Below are positions 24,040-39,939 of a stretch of DNA of 64,000 nucleotides, piece by piece. The notes under the pieces are model-generated. The model was not told where the DNA came from. It did no database searches and saw only the letters and a list, made by a program, of their open reading frames with translations. A program made the position numbers and the translations under genes. Numbering within the stretch: the first letter of the stretch is position 1; every line of letters begins with the position of its first letter. Origin of the DNA: an uncultured delta proteobacterium (lineage in GTDB: Bacteria > Myxococcota_A > Polyangia > Haliangiales > Haliangiaceae); contig CAWKDB010000010.1 of NCBI GenBank assembly GCA_963848295.1, positions 320,001-384,000 of the forward strand, written 5' to 3'.

Positions 24040-25492
<1,453 letters not shown>

Positions 25493-30162: not shown

Positions 30163-30303
30163 TCAGCAGATAATGACGTGCTTGACGCCCTCAGCCCCGC
30201 CGGCGCTACTACGGAGGTCGTTGTCCTCGAGCCGCACGAGCTTCACCTTTTGAACGCCGAGCTTCTTCGCTTCGCCCTGCTTGTCTTTTTTGGTGCGCTT
30301 CAT
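30163..30303 (-). CDS. 46-aa putative RiPP precursor peptide with double-glycine-type leader (not in the ORF track)
   Basis: Manual translation MKRTKKDKQGEAKKLGVQKVKLVRLEDNDLRSSAGGAEGVKHVIIC*. Basic leader with KKLxxxKxxLxxL, LxxxDLxxxAGG cleavage-type motif, TAAGAT 6 nt before the ATG, RiPP rSAM in the same cassette. Confidence 0.72.
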   Translation of the reverse strand: MKRTKKDKQGEAKKLGVQKVKLVRLEDNDLRSSAGGAEGVKHVIIC

Positions 30304-30403
30304 AGGACCATCTTAGGCGTTCGGCTCCGTCGACGATATGGGTTTCGGAGATCGTTCGACAGGACGCTGCGGGGCAAGTGTGCAACGATCCCGCCCGTCT
30401 CCG

Positions 30404-33400
30404 ATGGACACAGAAGGCTACATCGGGCGGGTTGTAGGTGAGTTCGTTCTCGACGAGCACATCGGCGGAGGCGGAGGCGGAGCGGTGTGGCGCGCGTCGC
30501 AACCTGTCCTGCAACGAGACGCCGTCATCAAGCTGCTGAACTCGAACGGAGAGCGCGAACGGATCGATCGTTTCCTACAAGAGGCCCGTCTGGCCTCGCG
30601 GCTCGATCATCCGTTCGCGGCGCACGTCTATGCGTTTGGGGTCGAGTCCGACGGCCTGATGTGGATCGCCATGGAGTTGGTGCGGGGGACCCCGCTCTCC
30701 ACCGTCCTCGAACACGGGCCGCTAGACCGCGGCTTGGCCTTCATCGAGCGCGTCTGTGAGGTCGTCCAGTCAACTCACGACCTCGGGATCGTCCATGGTG
30801 ACTTGAAGCCGTCGAACGTCATGGTGATCTCGCGGGTCGGAAATCAGTTCCCGAAGCTGCTCGATTTCGGAATCGCGCGCGAGCTCGCCGACAACACGAG
30901 CGGCGGTGCCGGAACACCGATGTACATGGCCCCGGAGCAATGGGTCACCGGACGCAAGCTCAGTCCCGCAACGGACGTCTATGCGCTCGGCGCGCTCGCG
31001 TTCGAATCCTCTCCGGCAATCCGCCGTTTTCTGGATCGACGCGACTGGAGCTCGCGAAACACCACGCCCGCACTCCGCCCCCCTCTCTCCCGGGCGGCTT
31101 TCCCGATCGAGTCAACGCCGCCATTGCCAAGGCGATGGCGAAGGCGCCCGGTGATCGGTTCGCCTCTGCGTCCGAGCTCGCGCGCGCGCTCGCGGGCAGC
31201 GAGTCTCTCGGCACGCTGAATCTCCCCAAGCTCGACGACTTGACTCTGGATGCCGCGTTGCTCGAGGCGCCGGAGCCGATCGCCGAGGCGGTCGTAACTC
31301 TCGACGCGGCGAGTGACGCGGAGACTGCCTACCGCGCCGCATGGCGAGTCGTCGATACGCTCGCCCACTATGTCGGCGCGATCGCGCTCGGCTGTCGCGC
31401 GCGCATTCGCGGTGTCGACACCGAGCCCCTTACCGAGCATCTCGTCGCGCTACGTGCACGCGGACTCGATGCAAGAGGTTGGTGGCACCTCGCACGCGAG
31501 ATCGCTCGACCGTTCGCGACGATCCGCGATGCCTTCCCGGTCCCCGAGTTGATCGGCGTGTTCTTCGACGGCCACGCCGAGCTCAACACCGCGCTGGATT
31601 TGGTGTTCGCCGAGGGCGCCGCACGGATCGAGCAACCAAACCGCGAGGTCGCGTCGACCGAGCTAACACGGTTGATCCCGACCTTGGGAAGCGCACTGCG
31701 GGCGTTGCGGTGGCTCGACGACTACCGGCTCGTCGTGCCGAACAAGGGCGGAGCGCAACGGTGGATGGGCGCCAGGCGCAGCGATCGGGCGACGATCGCG
31801 ACGAAAGCGCCGATGTTGTCGCCGGCATTGGTCAACGCAGACGGCGAAGTTGTTGTCGACCTGGATCCGGTTGCCGAGCTCCATGCACCGGTACCGGGAG
31901 CGCCACGCCAGCTGTTCTTCATCGACGGGCCTGGCCGCCACGGTGCACGCCTGCGCGCGTTGCCGACCGATCTCGAGCACGAGGTTGCGGATGGGTGGGG
32001 ACGCCTCGCGATCACCGGCGGATCCGACGACGATTCCACCGACGAGGTCGCGTCGCCGTACATGGGCCTTGCTACGTTTACCGAACAACAATCGTCACTG
32101 TTCTTCGGGCGCGAACGAGAGCTCGAAGAGCTGCTCAACCGGCTCCAAACGCAGAGCCTCATCGCGATCGTCGGCCCTTCGGGTGCAGGTAAGAGCTCCT
32201 TCGTACGCGCCGGGCTGTTTCCCGCGCTGGGACCGAGTTGGAGGCAGATCTCGCTGCGCCCTGGCCCGAACCCGCTTGCGAGCCTGACTGCGGCGATCGC
32301 CGCCGCGGGCGGTGGCGAGGTGCGGGCAGTCGACCTCTTGCATGCCCCCGAGCAAGCCGCCGCGCGGCTTCGCACACTTGCCGAGCAAAGCCGTCTGGTG
32401 GTCTTCGTCGATCAGTTCGAGGAACTGTTCACGCTATCTGCGGACGCCGAGCGCCAGCTCGCGTTTGCCAATGCGCTCGTGTCGATCGCTGAAGCAGGCA
32501 ATCGCATTCGCGTCGTCCTGACGCTCCGCGACGATTTCTTGGTCCGGGCAGCCCAAGTCCCTGCGCTCAAGTCGATCGCCAGCTGGCTCCAGATCCTGAC
32601 GACGCCAGCTCCAGACGATCTGCACCGGATCCTGGTCGAGCCTGCACGACGCAGTGGTTTCGCTTTCGAAGACGCCGAGTTCTCACAACAGATCGTCTCG
32701 GAGGTCGCGAACCAGCCCGGGGCGTTGGCCCTGCTGTCGTTTACCGCGTCGCAGCTATGGACCTTGCGCGATCGCCTCACCAAGCAGCTGATCCGGCGTG
32801 CGTATCGCGCGCTCGGTGGCGTCGGCGGGGCGCTCGCACAGCACGCCGAGAAGGTGCTCGGCTCCATGCCACCGGCGGGCCAGCGCATCGTACGAGAGCT
32901 GTTCCGTCACCTGGTGACCGCCGAAGGGACGCGCGCGGTGCTCAGCCGCGAGGAGCTCGCGCAGGTCGGCGGCGGCCCCGACGCCGCCCCAGTGATCGAG
33001 ACCCTGATCACGGAACGGCTGTTGACGGCCATGGAGGCGCCGACCGGAGAGAGCATCGAGGTCGTACACGAGACGCTGCTCGTGAGCTGGCCGAGGTTGG
33101 TGGGGTGGCGTAGCCAGGACGCCGAGAACGCCCGTCTGCGCGATCAACTGCGTCTCGCGGCGCGCCAATGGCAAGACGGGGGGCGACCACGCGGAATGCT
33201 TTGGCGCGGCGAAACCCTCGCCGAGTACCAGGTGTGGCGCGCGCGCTACCCCGGCACCGTCACCGCGAGCGAGGACGCGTTTGGAGCGTCGAGCGTCGCC
33301 GAGGCGGACCGCAATCGCCGGATCAGACGGAGCCTGCTTGTTGCCACGATCGCCGCCCTGGTCGTCGCGTTGGTCGTGTTCGCGCGGCTGCGCTCTGCGG

Positions 33401-35616
33401 CGGACGCCAGCCGCGAGGTGGCGCAGAGCCAGTTGTTAGGTTCGTATCTGCAACAGGCGGAACGCTCGCTCAGCGCGGGCGACGCGTTCGGTGGGTTGGT
33501 GTTCGCCGATGGAGCGACCCGACTCGGGGCCGACTCGTTTGCCCAGCGCTTCTTGATCGCCCGAGCGCTGGACTCGATCTCCCCGGAGGTCGCCACCATG
33601 AGCTCATCGCCCGGCATCGCGCCTTTCGTCGGGTTTCTCCCCGACGGTTCGGTTGCCGCCATCGGCAACGATGCGATTCTTCGGCGATGGTCGGCGACGG
33701 GCGCGCTGTTGTGGTCGACGAGTCCGGGCGCCACCGGCGGAAACTGGTGGCTCGCCACCGATCCCACCGGCCATTGGATTGCGACCGCTGCGGAGGACTC
33801 GATCGACTTGTGGACGCTGGACGGCCATCTCGCTCGACAGCTCAGAGGTCACCATGGGCAGATCGCGATGCTCAAGTTCTCCGCCGATGGGCGCAGCCTG
33901 CTCTCGACGGGATTCGATGGTACGGGCCGGATTTGGGATCTCGGCTCCGAACGCGTCCGCGTGCTGGATACGAAATTCGCCGGTCGGGCGGCAGGCGATC
34001 TCGTCGGAGATCGGGTCGTCGTGGTCGGCTCCGACGACATCGGATCGGCGAACGTGGTGATCGGGTCGCGCGGTAGCGCCGCGCCGGAGCGCGTCGCTCA
34101 GCCTCTCGGCCAGTACATCCCTATCTCCGTGGCGATTTCCGCCGACGGGCGTCGCGCCGCGTTCGGTTCCGCCGACGGTCCGATCCACGTCTGGGATCTC
34201 GAGACTCGATCCGAGATCGCGACGTTGACCGGGCACGAGGGAGCCGTGACCGCGCTGGCATTCTCCAAGGACGGCCAGCTCGTTTCGGGAGGCGTCGATT
34301 CCACCGTCCGCGTGTGGTCGATCTCGGCCGGGAGAATGGTTCGGTCGCTCGTAGGCCATCACGGTCAGCTCAAGATGATGGTCTTCGCCCCCGATGGACG
34401 GCTGCTTACCGGCGCCGCCGATGGGACCGCACGTCTCTGGGATATTTCGAGCGGCTCTAATCTGCGGACCTTCACGCACGGCGGTGGAATGATCGACGTC
34501 GCCGTCAACAAGGATGCCAGCCGGATCGCCACCGCGAGCGGGCTGGGAACCGTCAAGATCTGGCGCACCGACAGCGCGGTCGGGATCGACCCGTTGGCGG
34601 AGGCGGCCCCCGATCCGACCATGACGAATCCTTGGGTCTCGACCGACGGGACGCGGTTGCTCCGCGCAAGCTCGGCAGGCTGCGAGCTGTGGGATCTGAC
34701 GACGCGACGGCTGGTGACGAGGCTTGGCGGTGGCAAAGCGCTGTGCGCCGCGACCGACGAGCATGTCTATGTCGCCGACGGTGCCGCCCTCACGATCGCG
34801 AAGCTCCGAGACGGTGCGCCGATCACGCAGCTCAGCGCGCCGTTCGGCGTTGAAGAACTGTGCATCGATCCGGCCCATGACTGGATCGTCGTCGGCGGGA
34901 AGCTCCCCGGCCCGCTCGCCGTGCTCGACGACACCGGCCGCGTGCTCGGCAACGGTACGGCTGACGAAAGCGCGACGCTGATCTGCGAACCGAACGGAGT
35001 CGCCGCCTTCGGCGACCGGGTCACCTTCTTCGCGTCGCCCGACCTCGCGCGGCGAGGCAGCGAGCAGCTGCCCTCGTACGGCTTCGCGAGGTTCTACCCG
35101 GGGCTCGGCATCGTCAGCCAATCGGCGCGGACCGACCTCGCTGTCTGGCAAAGCGGGGTCCGGGTCGCCACGATCAAGTATCCCGGTCTGATCGGAGCGA
35201 TCGCTGTTAGCGACGGGAACCTGGCGGTCGGCCTCTATGACGGCGCGATCGTCGAGCGACAGAGGCCGGCACTGGTAGCGCCCGAGACCTTCAAGGCCCA
35301 TGGGGCGGCGGTACGCGCGCTCGCGAGTGACACGAGGATGCTCGCTTCGATCGCGCTCGACGGGACCCTCCAGATTCGCGAACACGGCGTGGCTAATCCG
35401 ATCTACGAGGCCCACGTCTCGCCCCTCACCTATTGGGCGGCGTTTGCCGGTGACTCGCTCGTGACGACGGATGGCGACCACGTCGAGCTACAACATCTCG
35501 ATGTCTATCATGGGACCGCCGACGAGCTAGCGCGCCTCGCGGCGTGCAAGGTTCCCGACCAGGTGCGCGCGCAACTCGCCGGGCCGCCCCCGGCGGCTCC
35601 CTGCGCCGATAGATAG
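30404..35616 (+). CDS. Ser/Thr kinase - STAND (nSTAND1-like) NTPase - TM - WD40 repeat protein, with an apparent 1-nt deletion near 31005
   Basis: Kinase (IGGGGGGAVW, HGDLKPSN, LLDFGIA, GTPMYMAPE) continues in the other frame as ILSGNPPF. Then SPYMGLATF..FFGRE, GPSGAGKSS, VFVDQFEELF, YRALGGVGGAL, a TM after RRIRR, and GH..WD repeats. Confidence 0.9.
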
Positions 35617-35668
35617 TCGGTGGACGTGGTGACTCGCGTAGTAGAATACGTGAAGTGAGGGCCGATCA

Positions 35669-37612
35669 TTGACCTACGACATCGCGCTCGTCACGATGCC
35701 TTGGTCGAGCCTGTCTTTTCCGTCGATCCAACTCGGCACCGTAGCGAGCCTCCTCGCTCGCGACGGCATCTCGACTCGTAGTTTTCACTACAACCTCAGG
35801 TTCGCCGAGTTCGCGATCGGGCGGACTGCGAGCTTGCCGCCCGCGGAGCGAGTGACCCTCCAGATCCTTCACCAGATCGCGGAGAGTCAACACATCGGCG
35901 AGTGGATCTTCGCGGTACCACCATTCCGCGAACGCGACGACGCATCCGACCAAGCGTTTCGCGAATTGACCGAGCAACGATCCATCCCTGGCGGCCGGAT
36001 CGAGACTCTCTACCAGCTCCGCGAGCTCGCCGAACCGTTCCTCGCTTCATGCGCAGACGAGCTGATCGCCACAGGTGTACGCGTCGTTGCGTTCACCAGT
36101 AGCTTCAATCAGAACGTCTCGTCGCTAGCGCTCGCCAAGATGCTCAAGCAACGGTCGCGAGAAATCTCGATTGTATTCGGAGGTGCGAACTGCGACGGCG
36201 TCATGGGAGCTGCCCTGCACGCCCTGTTCCCCTGGGTCGACGTTGTCGTGCGCGGGGAAGCGGAGCGGGTCGCGGCCCCGGTCTTTGCGGCCCTCCTCGC
36301 GCGACAGCCGGTCCCCGTACTTCCTGGCGTGTGCGTGCGCAACGACGGCGTGTCGGTCGCCCATCCTCTCCCTAACGACACCGTTCCGATGACCGATGTA
36401 CCGGCTCCCGACTACACCGACTACATCGCAGCGGTCACCGAGAGTCCGCTTGCCGGGGAGCTCGTTCCTTCGATTCGCTTGCTCTACGAGAGCGCGCGAG
36501 GTTGTTGGTGGGGCGAAAAAAATCACTGCACGTTCTGCGGGCTCAACGGTTCGACGATGAAATTCCGGAGCAAGCCGCCGAGCCAAACGTTCGACGAAAT
36601 GGTCGACATGGCACAGCGCTATCACTCGCTGCGCTTCCAGGTCGTCGACAACATCATCGAGATGGGGTACCTGCGCGAGCTACTGCCGCGGCTACGCGAA
36701 ACCGGCTGGAACTGGGATGTGTTCTACGAGACAAAAGCGAACCTCAAGAAGGCTCAGCTCCGACTTTTCCGCGAAGCAGGGGTGCGCACGATTCAACCAG
36801 GGATCGAGAGCCTCAGCACCCCGACGCTAAAGCTGATGAACAAAGGGGTCACCGCGCTCCAGAACATTCGTTTGCTGAAGTGGTGCGCTGAGCTCGAGAT
36901 CCGACCGGCGTGGAACTTGATCTTTGGGTTCCCCGGTGAAGACCCCGCGGAGTACGAGCGCATGGCGCAGGTGATCCCATCGCTCGTGCACTTTCGCGCG
37001 CCCGCGGCAACTCCGCTAGCGGTCGAGAGGTTCAGCCCGTACTTCAACGAGCCGGCTCGGTACGGCATCGAGATCGTAGGACCAGCGGCGCGATACCCGC
37101 TGTTTTACCCGTTCACGAGAACACAGCTCACGGACCTCGCATACGCATTCGAGTATCGCTATCTCGACGGCCGGACGCCGACCAGTTATGCCCAGCCCAT
37201 GCTCGCCGCGGTCACAGCATGGAACGCCGCGTCGAACACCGGAGCGCTGATCTTCGAGAAGGGCCCCGGCTTCATCACGATCGACGATCACCGGACGACC
37301 GTCGATCCCGCGCACTATACGTTCGAAGAGGAAGAAGCGGCGATCTATCTCGCGTGCGACGCTGGCGCGACGCCCGCCCAGGTGCGCGCCACGCTGATCG
37401 CTGATGGCCACGATGCGTTCTCCGAAGACGAGATTCGCGAGTTCCTCGATGGGTTGGTCGAGTCGCGCCTCGTCTACGAAGAGCGCGGCCGCTACCTCTC
37501 TCTCGCGATCGATCGCGATCCGCTGCGTGCGCTTCGCGGCGACGCGGAGGCAGCCGACGAGGCAGAGCCAGCGCCCGGCCTGATCGCGATCGGCCGCAAG
37601 CGCGCCAGCTGA
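35669..37612 (+). CDS. Cobalamin-dependent RiPP-maturation radical SAM C-methyltransferase (TIGR03975-like)
   Basis: LVTMPW..PSIQLG, FTSSFNQNVSSLALAK, FGGANCDG (B12-binding), ESARGCWWGEKNHCTFCGLNG (Cx7Cx2C), FYETKANL, QPGIES, WNLIFGFPGE, C-terminal wHTH/RRE-like segment. TTG start. Confidence 0.93.
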   Translation: MTYDIALVTMPWSSLSFPSIQLGTVASLLARDGISTRSFHYNLRFAEFAIGRTASLPPAERVTLQILHQIAESQHIGEWIFAVPPFRERDDASDQAFRELTEQRSIPGGRIETLYQLRELAEPFLASCADELIATGVRVVAFTSSFNQNVSSLALAKMLKQRSREISIVFGGANCDGVMGAALHALFPWVDVVVRGEAERVAAPVFAALLARQPVPVLPGVCVRNDGVSVAHPLPNDTVPMTDVPAPDYTDYIAAVTESPLAGELVPSIRLLYESARGCWWGEKNHCTFCGLNGSTMKFRSKPPSQTFDEMVDMAQRYHSLRFQVVDNIIEMGYLRELLPRLRETGWNWDVFYETKANLKKAQLRLFREAGVRTIQPGIESLSTPTLKLMNKGVTALQNIRLLKWCAELEIRPAWNLIFGFPGEDPAEYERMAQVIPSLVHFRAPAATPLAVERFSPYFNEPARYGIEIVGPAARYPLFYPFTRTQLTDLAYAFEYRYLDGRTPTSYAQPMLAAVTAWNAASNTGALIFEKGPGFITIDDHRTTVDPAHYTFEEEEAAIYLACDAGATPAQVRATLIADGHDAFSEDEIREFLDGLVESRLVYEERGRYLSLAIDRDPLRALRGDAEAADEAEPAPGLIAIGRKRAS

Positions 37613-37756: not shown

Positions 37757-38854
37757 ATGCGAGAAGGCTTGTTGGTCGTATTGGTGGGCGCCGCGCTCGC
37801 AGTCCCCGTTGCGGCCGCCGCCGCACCGCCGCTCCCAGGACTCCAGCACTCCCCGCCGATCTTCATGGACGAGGCGACACCGTTCGTCCAACTGATGAAC
37901 CAGTCGAACGGGTACTGGTTCATGGTCCATGCGCAGGTCGCCGGCATGCCTCCGAAGTCGCCGGTGCGCCTCGACTGGACCTCGGGCGGCAAGGTCGTGG
38001 CGAGCATCAAGTGCGACCTCCACCAAGGCATCTACCGCGACACGATCGGCGTGCAGTGTGACTACCGCGACAAGCCGCTCAAGGCCGCGGGCGCGATCAA
38101 CGCCAAGCTGATCGTGACCGACGACGCGGACGACAAGGAGTACTTGATCCGCGATCTGAAGGTCAACGCGACGCCGTATCGCGGCGACGCGAACGGGCCG
38201 ATCTGGCAGATCGTCCCCGACGACGTCCTCGGCGCCGGTTACGCGGTGCATATCCATACCGGAGAGCAAACCGCGCGCGAGGGCGAGATCGGCTTCAACT
38301 TCTGGATCAGTGGTCCGCTGCAGCACCCGCAAGGGCAGCTGCGCTGCTCGATCGATGGCAAGCAGCTCCAAGACGACTTCGAGGGCGAGTTCGAAGACAT
38401 GGGCCACGGCGAGGAGGAGGAGATCTCGACCAAGATCATCCCGAAGCACGGTAAGGCGACGTACTACTACTGGAAGCACGTCCAGTTCCTCGTGGGCCAG
38501 CTGTACTTCGGCAAGGACAAGCACGGCGATCACTTCGTGCTCGGGGATCATCCGGGCGCGTGGAGCTGCGACCTGCGGCTCGACCACCAGGTGCTCCGCA
38601 CGTTCGTGTTCACCGTCGACGACAAGGGGCGGATCCAGTCGGGCGCGATGCAGCAGGCCAAGGATTCACCACCGCTGCCCGCGGATGTCGCGTGGATCGA
38701 GATGCGCTTTCCCAAGTCGAATTCGGTGGACACCCGGATCAGGCCCGCGGCCATGAAGCACAGCCGCGGCTTCGGGCTGCCGTGGCCGAGCGATCCGAGC
38801 GTGAAAGCGCTCCATGCCATGTTCCCGGCCTCGGTCGGGCGAGGAGAGCCGTGA
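37757..38854 (+). CDS. Secreted hypothetical protein (paralog A)
   Basis: AAGGAGG SD, signal peptide, strong GC3 coding bias, similar to the next gene. Confidence 0.85.
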   Translation: MREGLLVVLVGAALAVPVAAAAAPPLPGLQHSPPIFMDEATPFVQLMNQSNGYWFMVHAQVAGMPPKSPVRLDWTSGGKVVASIKCDLHQGIYRDTIGVQCDYRDKPLKAAGAINAKLIVTDDADDKEYLIRDLKVNATPYRGDANGPIWQIVPDDVLGAGYAVHIHTGEQTAREGEIGFNFWISGPLQHPQGQLRCSIDGKQLQDDFEGEFEDMGHGEEEEISTKIIPKHGKATYYYWKHVQFLVGQLYFGKDKHGDHFVLGDHPGAWSCDLRLDHQVLRTFVFTVDDKGRIQSGAMQQAKDSPPLPADVAWIEMRFPKSNSVDTRIRPAAMKHSRGFGLPWPSDPSVKALHAMFPASVGRGEP

Positions 38855-39939
38855 TGCGCGGCTCGATCGTCGTCGCGATGACGCTCGCTGCGTCGGTGGC
38901 CCACGCCCATGGTCCGCTCGTGCCCGGCACGCAGCACACCCCGCCGCGGTTCGTCGACGAGTCCCACGTGCTGTTGCACCTGACCTACTCGCAATCGACG
39001 ACCAAGGGCTATCGCTTCTACTTGAAGGCGAACGTCGCCGGCTACACGTCGAACGCCGACACCATTCGCCTCGATTGGAAGAGCCACGGCAAGGTCGTCG
39101 CCAGCGCGAAGTGTGTCGGGACGGGCGAGCCGGCGCCCGCGGGCGTGTCCGAGATCAGTTGCGACTACGGCGACAAGGGCATCCACGCCAAGGGCCCGAT
39201 CGACGCGCAACTCGTCTACACCGACGACCACGACGACAAGGACTACCTGTTGCGCGACTTCAACGTGACCGTCGCCCAGTGGCCGAGCTTCGGCGACGAG
39301 GTCTGGCAGATCATGGGCGACGACCTGCTCGGCGCGGCGTACGCGAGGCATCTCGCGGACGGCAACGCGGCCAGCGCCCACAAGGTGGCGTTCTCGTTCT
39401 GGACGACCGCGCCCGACAAGGGTCACGACTGGGAGCTCCGTTGCACGGTCAACGGCACCAAGATCCCCGACCTCGATGCCGCCGGGATCGAAGGCGTGGG
39501 CTCGATCCAGGCGGATCAGGTGAAGAAGGGCACCGGCGCGCATACGCTGTATTCGTGGGTCCAGCTGGTGGTCGTGCCCAACATCTACTGGGGGCCGAAG
39601 AAGGAAGACAAGCACCCCAACGCCGCGTGGCTGATCGATCACGCCGGCGATTGGGTGTGCAACCTGCGCACGGATGCCAAGAACGTGCGCGAGCTGCGGT
39701 TTCACGTGAACGATCAAGGCATGGTCGAGTCCGATCCGATGGCCGCGGCCGGTCCGCCACTCGCCGACGGGACGGCCCTCGTCGACGTTCGCATCCCCAA
39801 GGATTCGAAGTTCGATCTGCGGGTGCGCCCAGCCGCGATGACGAAGAGTCGCGGCTACGGCCTTCCGTGGCCCAAGCATCCGAACGTGAAGGCGATCCTC
39901 GGCTCGCTGCCGCCGTCCAGCGGCCTGCCCGACCCGTAG
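38854..39939 (+). CDS. Secreted hypothetical protein (paralog B)
   Basis: TGATG coupling to paralog A, signal peptide MRGSIVVAMTLAASVAHA, shared motifs. Confidence 0.85.
   Translation: MRGSIVVAMTLAASVAHAHGPLVPGTQHTPPRFVDESHVLLHLTYSQSTTKGYRFYLKANVAGYTSNADTIRLDWKSHGKVVASAKCVGTGEPAPAGVSEISCDYGDKGIHAKGPIDAQLVYTDDHDDKDYLLRDFNVTVAQWPSFGDEVWQIMGDDLLGAAYARHLADGNAASAHKVAFSFWTTAPDKGHDWELRCTVNGTKIPDLDAAGIEGVGSIQADQVKKGTGAHTLYSWVQLVVVPNIYWGPKKEDKHPNAAWLIDHAGDWVCNLRTDAKNVRELRFHVNDQGMVESDPMAAAGPPLADGTALVDVRIPKDSKFDLRVRPAAMTKSRGYGLPWPKHPNVKAILGSLPPSSGLPDP

What the first reader, a model, noticed from the sequence alone, without database searches (positions are those of the whole stretch)
30163..37612. Candidate three-gene modified-peptide/receptor system: hidden precursor peptide + kinase-STAND-TM-WD40 + B12 radical SAM methyltransferase
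Seen: a 46-aa ORF divergent (100 bp) from a ~1740-aa kinase-NTPase-TM-WD40 gene, followed 52 bp later by a RiPP-type Cx7Cx2C radical SAM enzyme. No ABC exporter/C39 peptidase, YcaO, lanthipeptide synthetase or immunity gene is next to them. Known: this rSAM family (bottromycin methyltransferases, polytheonamide PoyB/C-like) C-methylates aliphatic residues of ribosomal peptides and usually sits in multi-enzyme antibiotic clusters. Inference: a single tailoring enzyme paired with a receptor-like kinase suggests a signalling or self-recognition circuit, where the methylated core is the ligand for the extracytoplasmic WD40 propeller, rather than an antibiotic pathway. I do not recognise this arrangement as a described system.
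Basis: partly seen in the sequence, partly recalled or inferred. Interest (0 to 1): 0.85.

Follow-up and report, generated by a model that had tools for sequence, protein, structure and literature searches.

The report
Modified-peptide genes with STAND receptor kinases
In a family of soil myxobacteria, one branch of giant membrane kinases with a predicted outward-facing propeller sensor nearly always sits beside a tiny peptide gene and swappable peptide-modifying enzymes (here a methylating enzyme), which likely forms an undescribed make-and-sense peptide signalling circuit.

Summary
The conserved unit is receptor plus peptide; the radical SAM enzyme is one of many interchangeable tailoring enzymes. 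All 7 kinase-nSTAND1-TM-WD40 paralogs in this genome have a double-glycine-leader peptide gene at one end, against 2 of 193 other kinase domains. In relatives, 21 of 32 loci of this receptor branch carry a peptide by tests not trained on them, against 0 of 16 in a sister branch; 11 of 11 further loci do too. Neighbours vary: LanB/LanC, MNIO, MBL-fold, JmjC, methyltransferases, C39 exporters. Of 61 receptor-linked peptide genes, 33 have a sigma54-type promoter, 27 at a fixed distance from the start codon. FHA-sigma54 activators often lie beside the receptors, and peptides co-vary with the sensor half. Best reading (about 0.55): an autoinduction or kin-signal circuit in which the exported, modified core binds the periplasmic double propeller and the kinase drives sigma54 transcription. 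Binding is not shown. I found no description in the open literature searched.

The parts
30163..30303 (-). Precursor peptide, 46 aa: basic double-glycine leader (36 aa, 30196-30303) and predicted core AEGVKHVIIC (30166-30195)
   Evidence: ORF; GC3 0.79, like its neighbours; leave-one-out rank 1; called as a protein in the database, no homolog listed; no NCBIfam or Pfam hit itself, while sister peptides hit NF038153 lant_leader_L1a
30381..30396 (-). Candidate sigma54 (-24/-12) promoter of the peptide gene, 93 nt upstream of the ATG; weaker and farther away than the family's usual -28 site
   Evidence: Score 5.5 on my consensus scale, reached by 1.7% of random 220-bp genome windows; consensus recalled
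30404..31006 (+). Hanks-type Ser/Thr kinase domain, N-terminal part; catalytic loop HGD rather than HRD
   Evidence: PF00069 E 4e-29; motifs
31003..31010 (+). Frame change splitting the receptor gene (assembly error or pseudogene; unresolved)
   Evidence: the runs laid do not cover the site
31222..32034 (+). Conserved linker domain of about 270 aa between kinase and STAND, no named family
   Evidence: Aligned across paralogs; none among the 25 of 46 Pfam families shown; Atlas best score 0.82, uninformative
32056..33192 (+). nSTAND1 NTPase with intact Walker A (GPSGAGKSS) and Walker B
   Evidence: PF20703 E 2e-101
33334..33390 (+). Single predicted transmembrane helix, basic residues mostly on its N-terminal side (N-in, C-out)
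   Evidence: Hydropathy and K/R counts across 58 receptors
33391..35616 (+). Predicted extracytoplasmic sensor: three helices, about 16 four-stranded blades (double beta-propeller), C-terminal helix with a Cys pair
   Evidence: AlphaFold2 pLDDT 84, pTM 0.85; Foldseek hits are double propellers, with Apaf-1 at rank 3 and TM 0.43; Cys pair
35669..37612 (+). B12-dependent radical SAM RiPP C-methyltransferase (TIGR03975), Cx7Cx2C
   Evidence: 59-61% identical paralog beside a second receptor-peptide pair at G000 C10:1940970

Best explanation
This locus is one cassette of a recurring module that pairs a membrane kinase-STAND-WD40 gene with a double-glycine peptide gene and swappable tailoring enzymes, and it likely works as a self-made peptide signal with its own receptor. 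Shown: the pairing, the domain order, the enzyme family, the sigma54-type promoters and the FHA-sigma54 neighbours. Inferred steps: (1) sigma54 polymerase transcribes the peptide gene; (2) the radical SAM enzyme C-methylates Val or Ile of the core AEGVKHVIIC; (3) the genome's single C39 exporter, with HlyD and TolC-type partners, would cut at GG and secrete the core; (4) the core would re-enter the periplasm and bind the double propeller; (5) the STAND domain would oligomerise and the kinases trans-phosphorylate; (6) phospho-Thr would recruit an FHA-sigma54 enhancer-binding protein that raises transcription of the peptide gene and other targets. Seven different cassettes in one genome would be seven private channels.
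For: 7 of 7 receptor paralogs in G000 have a peptide at a gene end, the seventh found by a profile that did not contain it; 2 of 193 other kinase domains do. Relatives: 21 of 32 full loci of the peptide branch against 0 of 16 of the sister branch, by an HMM from G000 only (13 of 32) or a fixed rule (17 of 32); 11 of 11 further loci not used in training (8 by HMM; 3 by rule). RiPP enzyme or C39 exporter within 4.5 kb: 18 of 32 against 0 of 16 (families). Sigma54-type site upstream of 33 of 65 peptide genes examined (33 of 61 receptor-linked, 0 of 4 unlinked), shuffle mean 1.9, opposite strand 1; 27 lie 28-33 nt before the start, against 134 of 4,521 ordinary genes. A sigma54 activator, nearly always with an FHA domain, lies beside 15 of 16 sister-branch and 10 of 32 peptide-branch receptors. 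Core similarity follows the extracytoplasmic part (partial r 0.33, 0 of 1000 permutations), not kinase, linker or STAND. The sensor is the fastest-changing part (27% mean identity against 56% for STAND).
Against: Leaders follow the sensor almost as well as cores do (partial r 0.28), so the co-variation may be physical linkage rather than co-adaptation. The sister branch signals without any peptide neighbour, so the receptor class does not need one. C39-HlyD-TolC export would bypass the periplasm, so the peptide must re-enter. No FHA-sigma54 gene was seen among the ORFs listed for 22-46 kb of the window, and its sigma54 site is weak. This copy is frameshifted, as are 4 of 7 paralogs. Loci are related, so the counts overstate independence (32 loci from about 26 genomes by record title).
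Confidence: 0.55

Rival explanations
1. The receptor is a dedicated switch for the peptide pathway but senses something else (prey, competitor or envelope damage); the modified peptide is the output, such as an antimicrobial or metal chelator, not the ligand.
For: Same linkage, sigma54 promoters and FHA activators. The sister branch has receptor plus activator and no peptide. Many cores look like ordinary lanthipeptide precursors with NF038153 leaders. Export across both membranes suits an effector.
Against: One receptor per peptide, with sensor and peptide inherited together and the sensor diverging fastest, fits cognate pairs better than a shared stress cue. Several cores are only 8-12 residues with a single tailoring enzyme.
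Confidence: 0.27
2. It is a conflict or immunity module: the STAND receptor detects the peptide of rivals, or protects against its own toxic peptide, and triggers defence or cell death as proposed for other nSTAND1 proteins.
For: nSTAND1 was named in putative counter-invader systems (PMC8195603, passage) and occurs in DGR-diversified putative antigen sensors, some related STAND sensors predicted periplasmic (PMC10907252, passages). Cassettes are patchy and polymorphic (0 to 9 per genome). The sensor resembles the Apaf-1 double propeller.
Against: The only effector is a protein kinase, and its recurring neighbours are transcription activators rather than nucleases or peptidases. The peptide genes carry sigma54-type promoters.
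Confidence: 0.1
3. The kinase is a biosynthetic enzyme that phosphorylates the precursor, replacing a dehydratase at loci with LanC but no LanB.
For: Many loci have LanC-like genes without an adjacent LanB; kinase-dependent dehydration is known in class III and IV lanthipeptides (PMC7268733, passage).
Against: The window's core has no Ser or Thr; no lyase was recognised among the neighbours scanned; G000 has a stand-alone LanB beside its exporter that could act in trans; the sister branch has the kinase without peptides.
Confidence: 0.04
4. The pairing is hitch-hiking: receptors and peptide cassettes share insertion hot spots without a functional link.
For: All three genes share a lower GC3 (0.77-0.80) than flanking genes (0.85-0.93), so they arrived as one island; most rSAM homologs sit with peptides but no receptor.
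Against: The pairing survives changes of order and strand and complete exchange of enzymes, is confined to one receptor branch, and peptide subfamilies map onto receptor subclades.
Confidence: 0.04

Closest known systems
Peptide-pheromone three-component circuits (ComC/ComAB/ComDE, nisin NisRK autoinduction); recalled, not read here
   Same: Double-glycine precursor, C39 exporter, cognate membrane receptor kinase beside the peptide gene, probable positive feedback, allelic dialects
   Different: Those use a histidine kinase and response regulator in Gram-positive bacteria; here a Hanks kinase fused to a STAND NTPase and double propeller, with an FHA-sigma54 activator as likely output, in diderm myxobacteria, and with many unrelated tailoring chemistries
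nSTAND1 conflict or antigen-sensor systems (PMC8195603, PMC10907252; passages read)
   Same: Effector-nSTAND1-variable sensor layout; kinase and FHA named among associated domains; multicellular bacteria; some STAND sensors predicted periplasmic
   Different: No RiPP precursor or tailoring enzymes in the passages read (RiPP and lantibiotic: 0 occurrences in PMC8195603); function there proposed as invader sensing and death
PoyB/PoyC and bottromycin C-methyltransferases, TIGR03975 (PMC11285071, passages)
   Same: B12-binding class B radical SAM; PoyC has Cx7Cx2C and methylates Ile and Val; the core here has two Val and two Ile
   Different: Those act in multi-enzyme toxin or antibiotic clusters on longer cores; no receptor kinase is mentioned in the passages read
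LxLxKx5L double-glycine class I lanthipeptide leaders, NF038153 (PMC7268733, passages)
   Same: 6 of 13 receptor-linked or same-genome peptides tested pass the NF038153 cut-off, as does 1 of 2 rSAM-only peptides; removal by a C39 protease
   Different: Described from Bacteroidetes LanBC clusters; WD40 and Myxo occur 0 times in that paper; here the leader serves many non-lanthipeptide enzymes, and the window's peptide itself misses the model
Apaf-1 and NLR-type STAND receptors
   Same: STAND NTPase followed by a double WD40 propeller (3sfz, rank 3, E 1e-26, TM 0.43)
   Different: Apaf-1 is wholly cytoplasmic and recruits caspases (recalled); here a membrane helix separates STAND and sensor, and the effector is a kinase

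Membership tests
TIGR03975 RiPP maturation radical SAM C-methyltransferase | HMM score above curated cut-off | tested here: met
   599.3 bits against 281.85, full length
TIGR03975 RiPP maturation radical SAM C-methyltransferase | B12-binding domain plus Cx7Cx2C radical SAM motif | tested here: met
   PF02310 E 5e-5 (below Pfam's cut-off), PF04055 E 2e-14; CWWGEKNHCTFC
TIGR03975 RiPP maturation radical SAM C-methyltransferase | C-methylation of the adjacent peptide | not testable with these tools
   Needs co-expression and mass spectrometry
Double-glycine RiPP precursor (NF038153-like) | Conserved leader ending in GG with a variable core | tested here: met
   Leave-one-out rank 1; sister peptides pass NF038153; this peptide has no hit at E<=0.1
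Double-glycine RiPP precursor (NF038153-like) | C39 peptidase ABC exporter available | tested here: inconclusive
   None at the locus; one in the genome at C2:792339 with HlyD-like, outer-membrane efflux and LanB genes; substrate range unknown
Histidine-kinase peptide-pheromone three-component systems | Receptor is a histidine kinase with a cognate response regulator | tested here: not met
   Receptor is PF00069 plus PF20703 plus WD40; recurring partner is an FHA-sigma54 activator
Histidine-kinase peptide-pheromone three-component systems | Peptide activates the linked receptor and its own transcription | not testable with these tools
   Indirect only: promoters, co-inheritance
nSTAND1 conflict / NLR-like defence systems | Effector-nSTAND1-repeat sensor architecture with intact Walker motifs | tested here: met
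   (Walker A in 58 of 58 receptors)
nSTAND1 conflict / NLR-like defence systems | Toxic effector, or adaptor domain coupling to one | tested here: not met
   Only a kinase is fused; 98 neighbour proteins scanned show RiPP enzymes, exporters, kinases and sigma54 activators; PADLOC was not searched
Class III/IV/V kinase-dependent lanthipeptides | Ser/Thr in core plus lyase and cyclase | tested here: not met
   Core AEGVKHVIIC lacks Ser/Thr; no LanC at this locus

The most novel reading that the evidence does not exclude
Kofleriaceae myxobacteria carry an expanded family of transmembrane NLR-like receptor kinases whose ligands are the cell's own post-translationally modified peptides: a chemically coded, strain-specific language read through STAND oligomerisation, Thr phosphorylation and FHA-sigma54 activators, a bacterial counterpart of plant peptide-hormone and receptor-kinase pairs.
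Probability: 0.5. Interest if true: 0.92.

Novelty: categorically new. Interest (0 to 1): 0.8.

Why it matters
If true, it gives the first ligands for bacterial transmembrane STAND kinases, a peptide quorum or kin-recognition system in diderm multicellular bacteria that uses no histidine kinase, and a biological role for many orphan RiPP cassettes. Even if the peptide is only the output, the receptor gene is a practical marker for hidden RiPP precursors and new chemistry (zinc-ribbon-like cores with MBL-fold enzymes, JmjC, MNIO, B12 methylation), and each cassette supplies a small, directly testable ligand-receptor pair.

Tried and rejected
Co-folding of a core with its sensor was not available, so there is no verdict on binding. 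Sequencing runs: no RNA holder listed; contigs of run X1 match parts of the locus, 18 of 19 at 99% or more, but none covers the frame change. Homolog search with the sensor gave only generic WD40 proteins at 24-37% identity among the 120 listed; the peptide has no listed homolog; the rSAM has no solved relative; the linker domain gave no Atlas hit above 0.82. The first partial-Mantel result (core against sensor, r 0.45) was downgraded after the leader control behaved alike. 'The rSAM defines the system' was rejected. 'All receptors of this architecture have peptides' was rejected: 0 of 16 sister-branch and 0 of 5 loci of the mostly acidobacterial group, although my tests could miss very different leaders there. 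Frameshift background: 0 in 29 kb of ordinary genes (110 of 125 queries used), 7 in 43 kb of sigma54 domains and 7 in 161 kb of kinase domains, so error and decay cannot be separated. The refined HMMs were trained on found peptides and are not used for the branch comparison; one training row was mis-sliced to three letters. Nine of 20 regions were left out of the 11-of-11 count (8 duplicated loci already held, 1 was an rSAM locus). Of the 80 loci, 27 were left out of the branch counts as truncated or short-flanked.

Full report
Observation. The large gene is not one ORF: the kinase runs in one frame to about 31006, and the remainder (kinase C-lobe, linker, nSTAND1, membrane helix, WD40) lies in ORF 30940-35616. 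The closest paralog is continuous here and has one more base. Four of seven paralogs are split by frame changes. Frame changes also occur in other gene families of this assembly (7 in 43 kb of sigma54 domains, 7 in 161 kb of kinase domains) but not in 29 kb of ordinary genes. Long-read error is my preferred reading (inference, about 0.7); the runs laid do not cover the site. The enzyme is a full TIGR03975 member with Cx7Cx2C. The three genes share a lower GC3 than their flanks.

The module in this genome. G000 (7.8 Mb, 85% complete) encodes seven kinase-linker-nSTAND1-TM-WD40 genes. Six had an obvious basic, GG-ending small ORF at one end. A profile built from those six found the seventh, 119 bp behind the remaining receptor, plus one peptide elsewhere. 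Leave-one-out ranked the held-out peptide first in 7 of 8 trials and second in one. A refined profile finds 11 peptides in all. Of 200 kinase domains, all 7 of this clade have a peptide at a gene end; of the other 193, two do. The cores are unrelated and so are the enzymes: TIGR03975 twice, the second with a methyltransferase and a flavoprotein; JmjC with an MBL-fold protein; a TehB-like methyltransferase; LanC; or none seen. One C39 exporter with HlyD-like, outer-membrane efflux and LanB genes lies on another contig and could serve all cassettes (inference).

Relatives. A scan of species genomes gave 201 relatives, of which the best 80 were kept; titles are mostly Kofleriaceae, with some Myxococcaceae, Polyangia and Blastocatellia. 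In the window's genus, 61 of 91 genomes match, with up to 9 copies (one of these genomes, G010, is flagged unpublished and enters the genome tallies only). A tree of 75 kinase-linker regions separates a long-branched sister group from the group holding the three G000 copies included. Among full-length loci with at least 900 bp of flank, a G000-only HMM or a fixed rule finds a peptide within 3 kb in 21 of 32 peptide-branch loci, 0 of 16 sister loci and 0 of 5 loci of the mostly acidobacterial group. With trained profiles and inspection the figure is 29 of 32, which is not an independent count. Eleven further top-scoring loci from eight genomes, not used in training, all carry one (8 at 12 bits or more, with a reversed control maximum of 7.5; 3 by rule). 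A RiPP enzyme or C39 exporter lies within 4.5 kb of 18 of 32 against 0 of 16; Pfam names LanC, LanB, MNIO, MBL-fold, methyltransferases, a glycosyltransferase, C39 exporters, HlyD and efflux proteins (98 proteins). Peptide subfamilies track receptor subclades, for example the Cys-rich family of L050/051/054/056/057/060. These loci are kin, so the contrasts overstate independence.

The radical SAM enzyme. Close homologs occur in 4 of 147 genomes of the order. The full trio recurs at G000 C10:1.94 Mb, in G017 (receptor, peptide, enzyme) and in metagenome locus L147. Of 80 metagenomic homolog loci only L147 shows the receptor in the DNA held, whereas 20 of 68 with more than 400 bp upstream have a similar basic GG-leader ORF beside the enzyme gene. 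So peptide plus enzyme is a wider cassette that has been plugged into the receptor module. PoyC, which shares the Cx7Cx2C motif, methylates Ile and Val (PMC11285071, passages); the core here has two of each, and a His-Val pair recurs in the G017, L147 and L148 cores. Methylation is inferred, not shown.

Receptor anatomy. All 58 receptors examined keep Walker A. One hydrophobic helix follows the STAND domain in nearly all, usually with more Lys/Arg before it than after, and most end in a Cys pair 20-30 residues apart, which suits a disulfide outside the cytoplasm (inference). AlphaFold2 models the window's C-terminal 741 residues as three helices, about 16 blades and a closing helix (pLDDT 84); the best solved matches are double propellers, with Apaf-1 third. 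This part is the most divergent (27% mean identity against 56% for STAND). Core similarity follows it after removing kinase, linker and STAND (partial r 0.33), but leader similarity does too (0.28). That shows peptide gene and sensor half travel together; it does not prove co-adaptation.

Output side. A sigma54 activator, nearly always with an FHA domain, adjoins 15 of 16 sister-branch and 10 of 32 peptide-branch receptors, and in the four sister loci inspected it follows the receptor directly. FHA domains bind phospho-Thr (established knowledge). Upstream of 33 of 65 peptide genes lies a -24/-12-type site (shuffles: mean 1.9, maximum 6 in 200; opposite strand 1); 27 sit 28-33 nt before the start, which would make near-leaderless transcripts (consensus recalled, threshold mine). 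Ordinary genes of G000 have this at 3% (134 of 4,521). The window's own site is weaker and at -93. Together these argue that receptor, activator and peptide gene form one regulatory path.

Mechanism and rivals. I favour an autoinduction or kin-signal circuit (0.55): sigma54 transcription, methylation, export and cleavage in trans, binding to the periplasmic propellers, STAND-driven kinase activation, FHA-activator recruitment. The main rival (0.27) keeps the regulation but makes the peptide an output. Conflict or immunity (0.10), kinase as maturase (0.04) and hitch-hiking (0.04) fit less well. Binding was not examined.

Comparison with what is known. It works like Gram-positive peptide-pheromone circuits (recalled) but fails their defining histidine-kinase test. 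It shares architecture with nSTAND1 conflict proteins (PMC8195603 and PMC10907252, passages only) but has no toxic effector. Leaders belong to or near NF038153 (PMC7268733, passages). Nine answered full-text searches of the open library showed no description of the pairing: nSTAND1+WD40+kinase, 5 papers, 4 listed, none on RiPPs by title; TIGR03975, 2 listed (one passage read); Kofleriaceae+RiPP, 3; two multi-term searches, 0; searches likewise nothing on it, judged from listings. Subscription papers are not covered and I opened no supplements, where neighbourhood tables could list such loci. An unchecked note of this scan on another genome (e1-7265786) reports the same arrangement; I saw it only after my own counts, and it is not independent support.

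Verdict. Observation partly confirmed; interpretation partly supported and widened from three genes to a family-wide module; undescribed as far as searched; interest 0.8.

Noticed in passing
G000 genome-wide: 134 of 4,521 gene-like ORFs have a sigma54-type site 27-33 nt (peak 28) before an ATG: a large, apparently leaderless sigma54 regulon rich in predicted lipoproteins and secreted proteins. A paper search gave one listing on M. xanthus PexR, not read.
   Followed up: partly
window about 30840 and G000 C10:4158978: The window's kinase and its closest paralog have HGD instead of HRD in the catalytic loop; the 57 other receptors checked have HRD.
   Followed up: no
L050, L051, L054, L056, L057, L060: Precursors with zinc-ribbon-like CxC/CxxC...CPxCG cores and poly-Gly tails, beside MBL-fold enzymes and efflux proteins: a possible new RiPP class.
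   Followed up: partly
L079, L080, L083, L094: Acidobacterial-type relatives end in a different C-terminal domain resembling an FGE/C-type lectin fold (motif recalled) and showed no peptide by my tests.
   Followed up: no
G000 C1:21845-25686: The same leader family beside LanC, a different kinase gene and an ECF-type sigma factor gene (names read from the sequence); other kinase classes may also pair with these peptides.
   Followed up: no
L130, L135-L137, L139, L143, L145, L149, L150, L155, L161, L163, L170: TIGR03975-type enzymes with short Lys-rich GG-leader peptides, many ending in V-K-L-S/T or similar, without the receptor.
   Followed up: partly
window 37757-39939 (+): Two tandem, mutually similar secreted-looking proteins of about 365 aa with no Pfam hit directly after the rSAM gene; their GC3 matches the host background, so they are probably not part of the cassette.
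   Followed up: no
window 24040-25492 (-): A receiver-sigma54 activator gene also appears split by a frame change near 25200.
   Followed up: no
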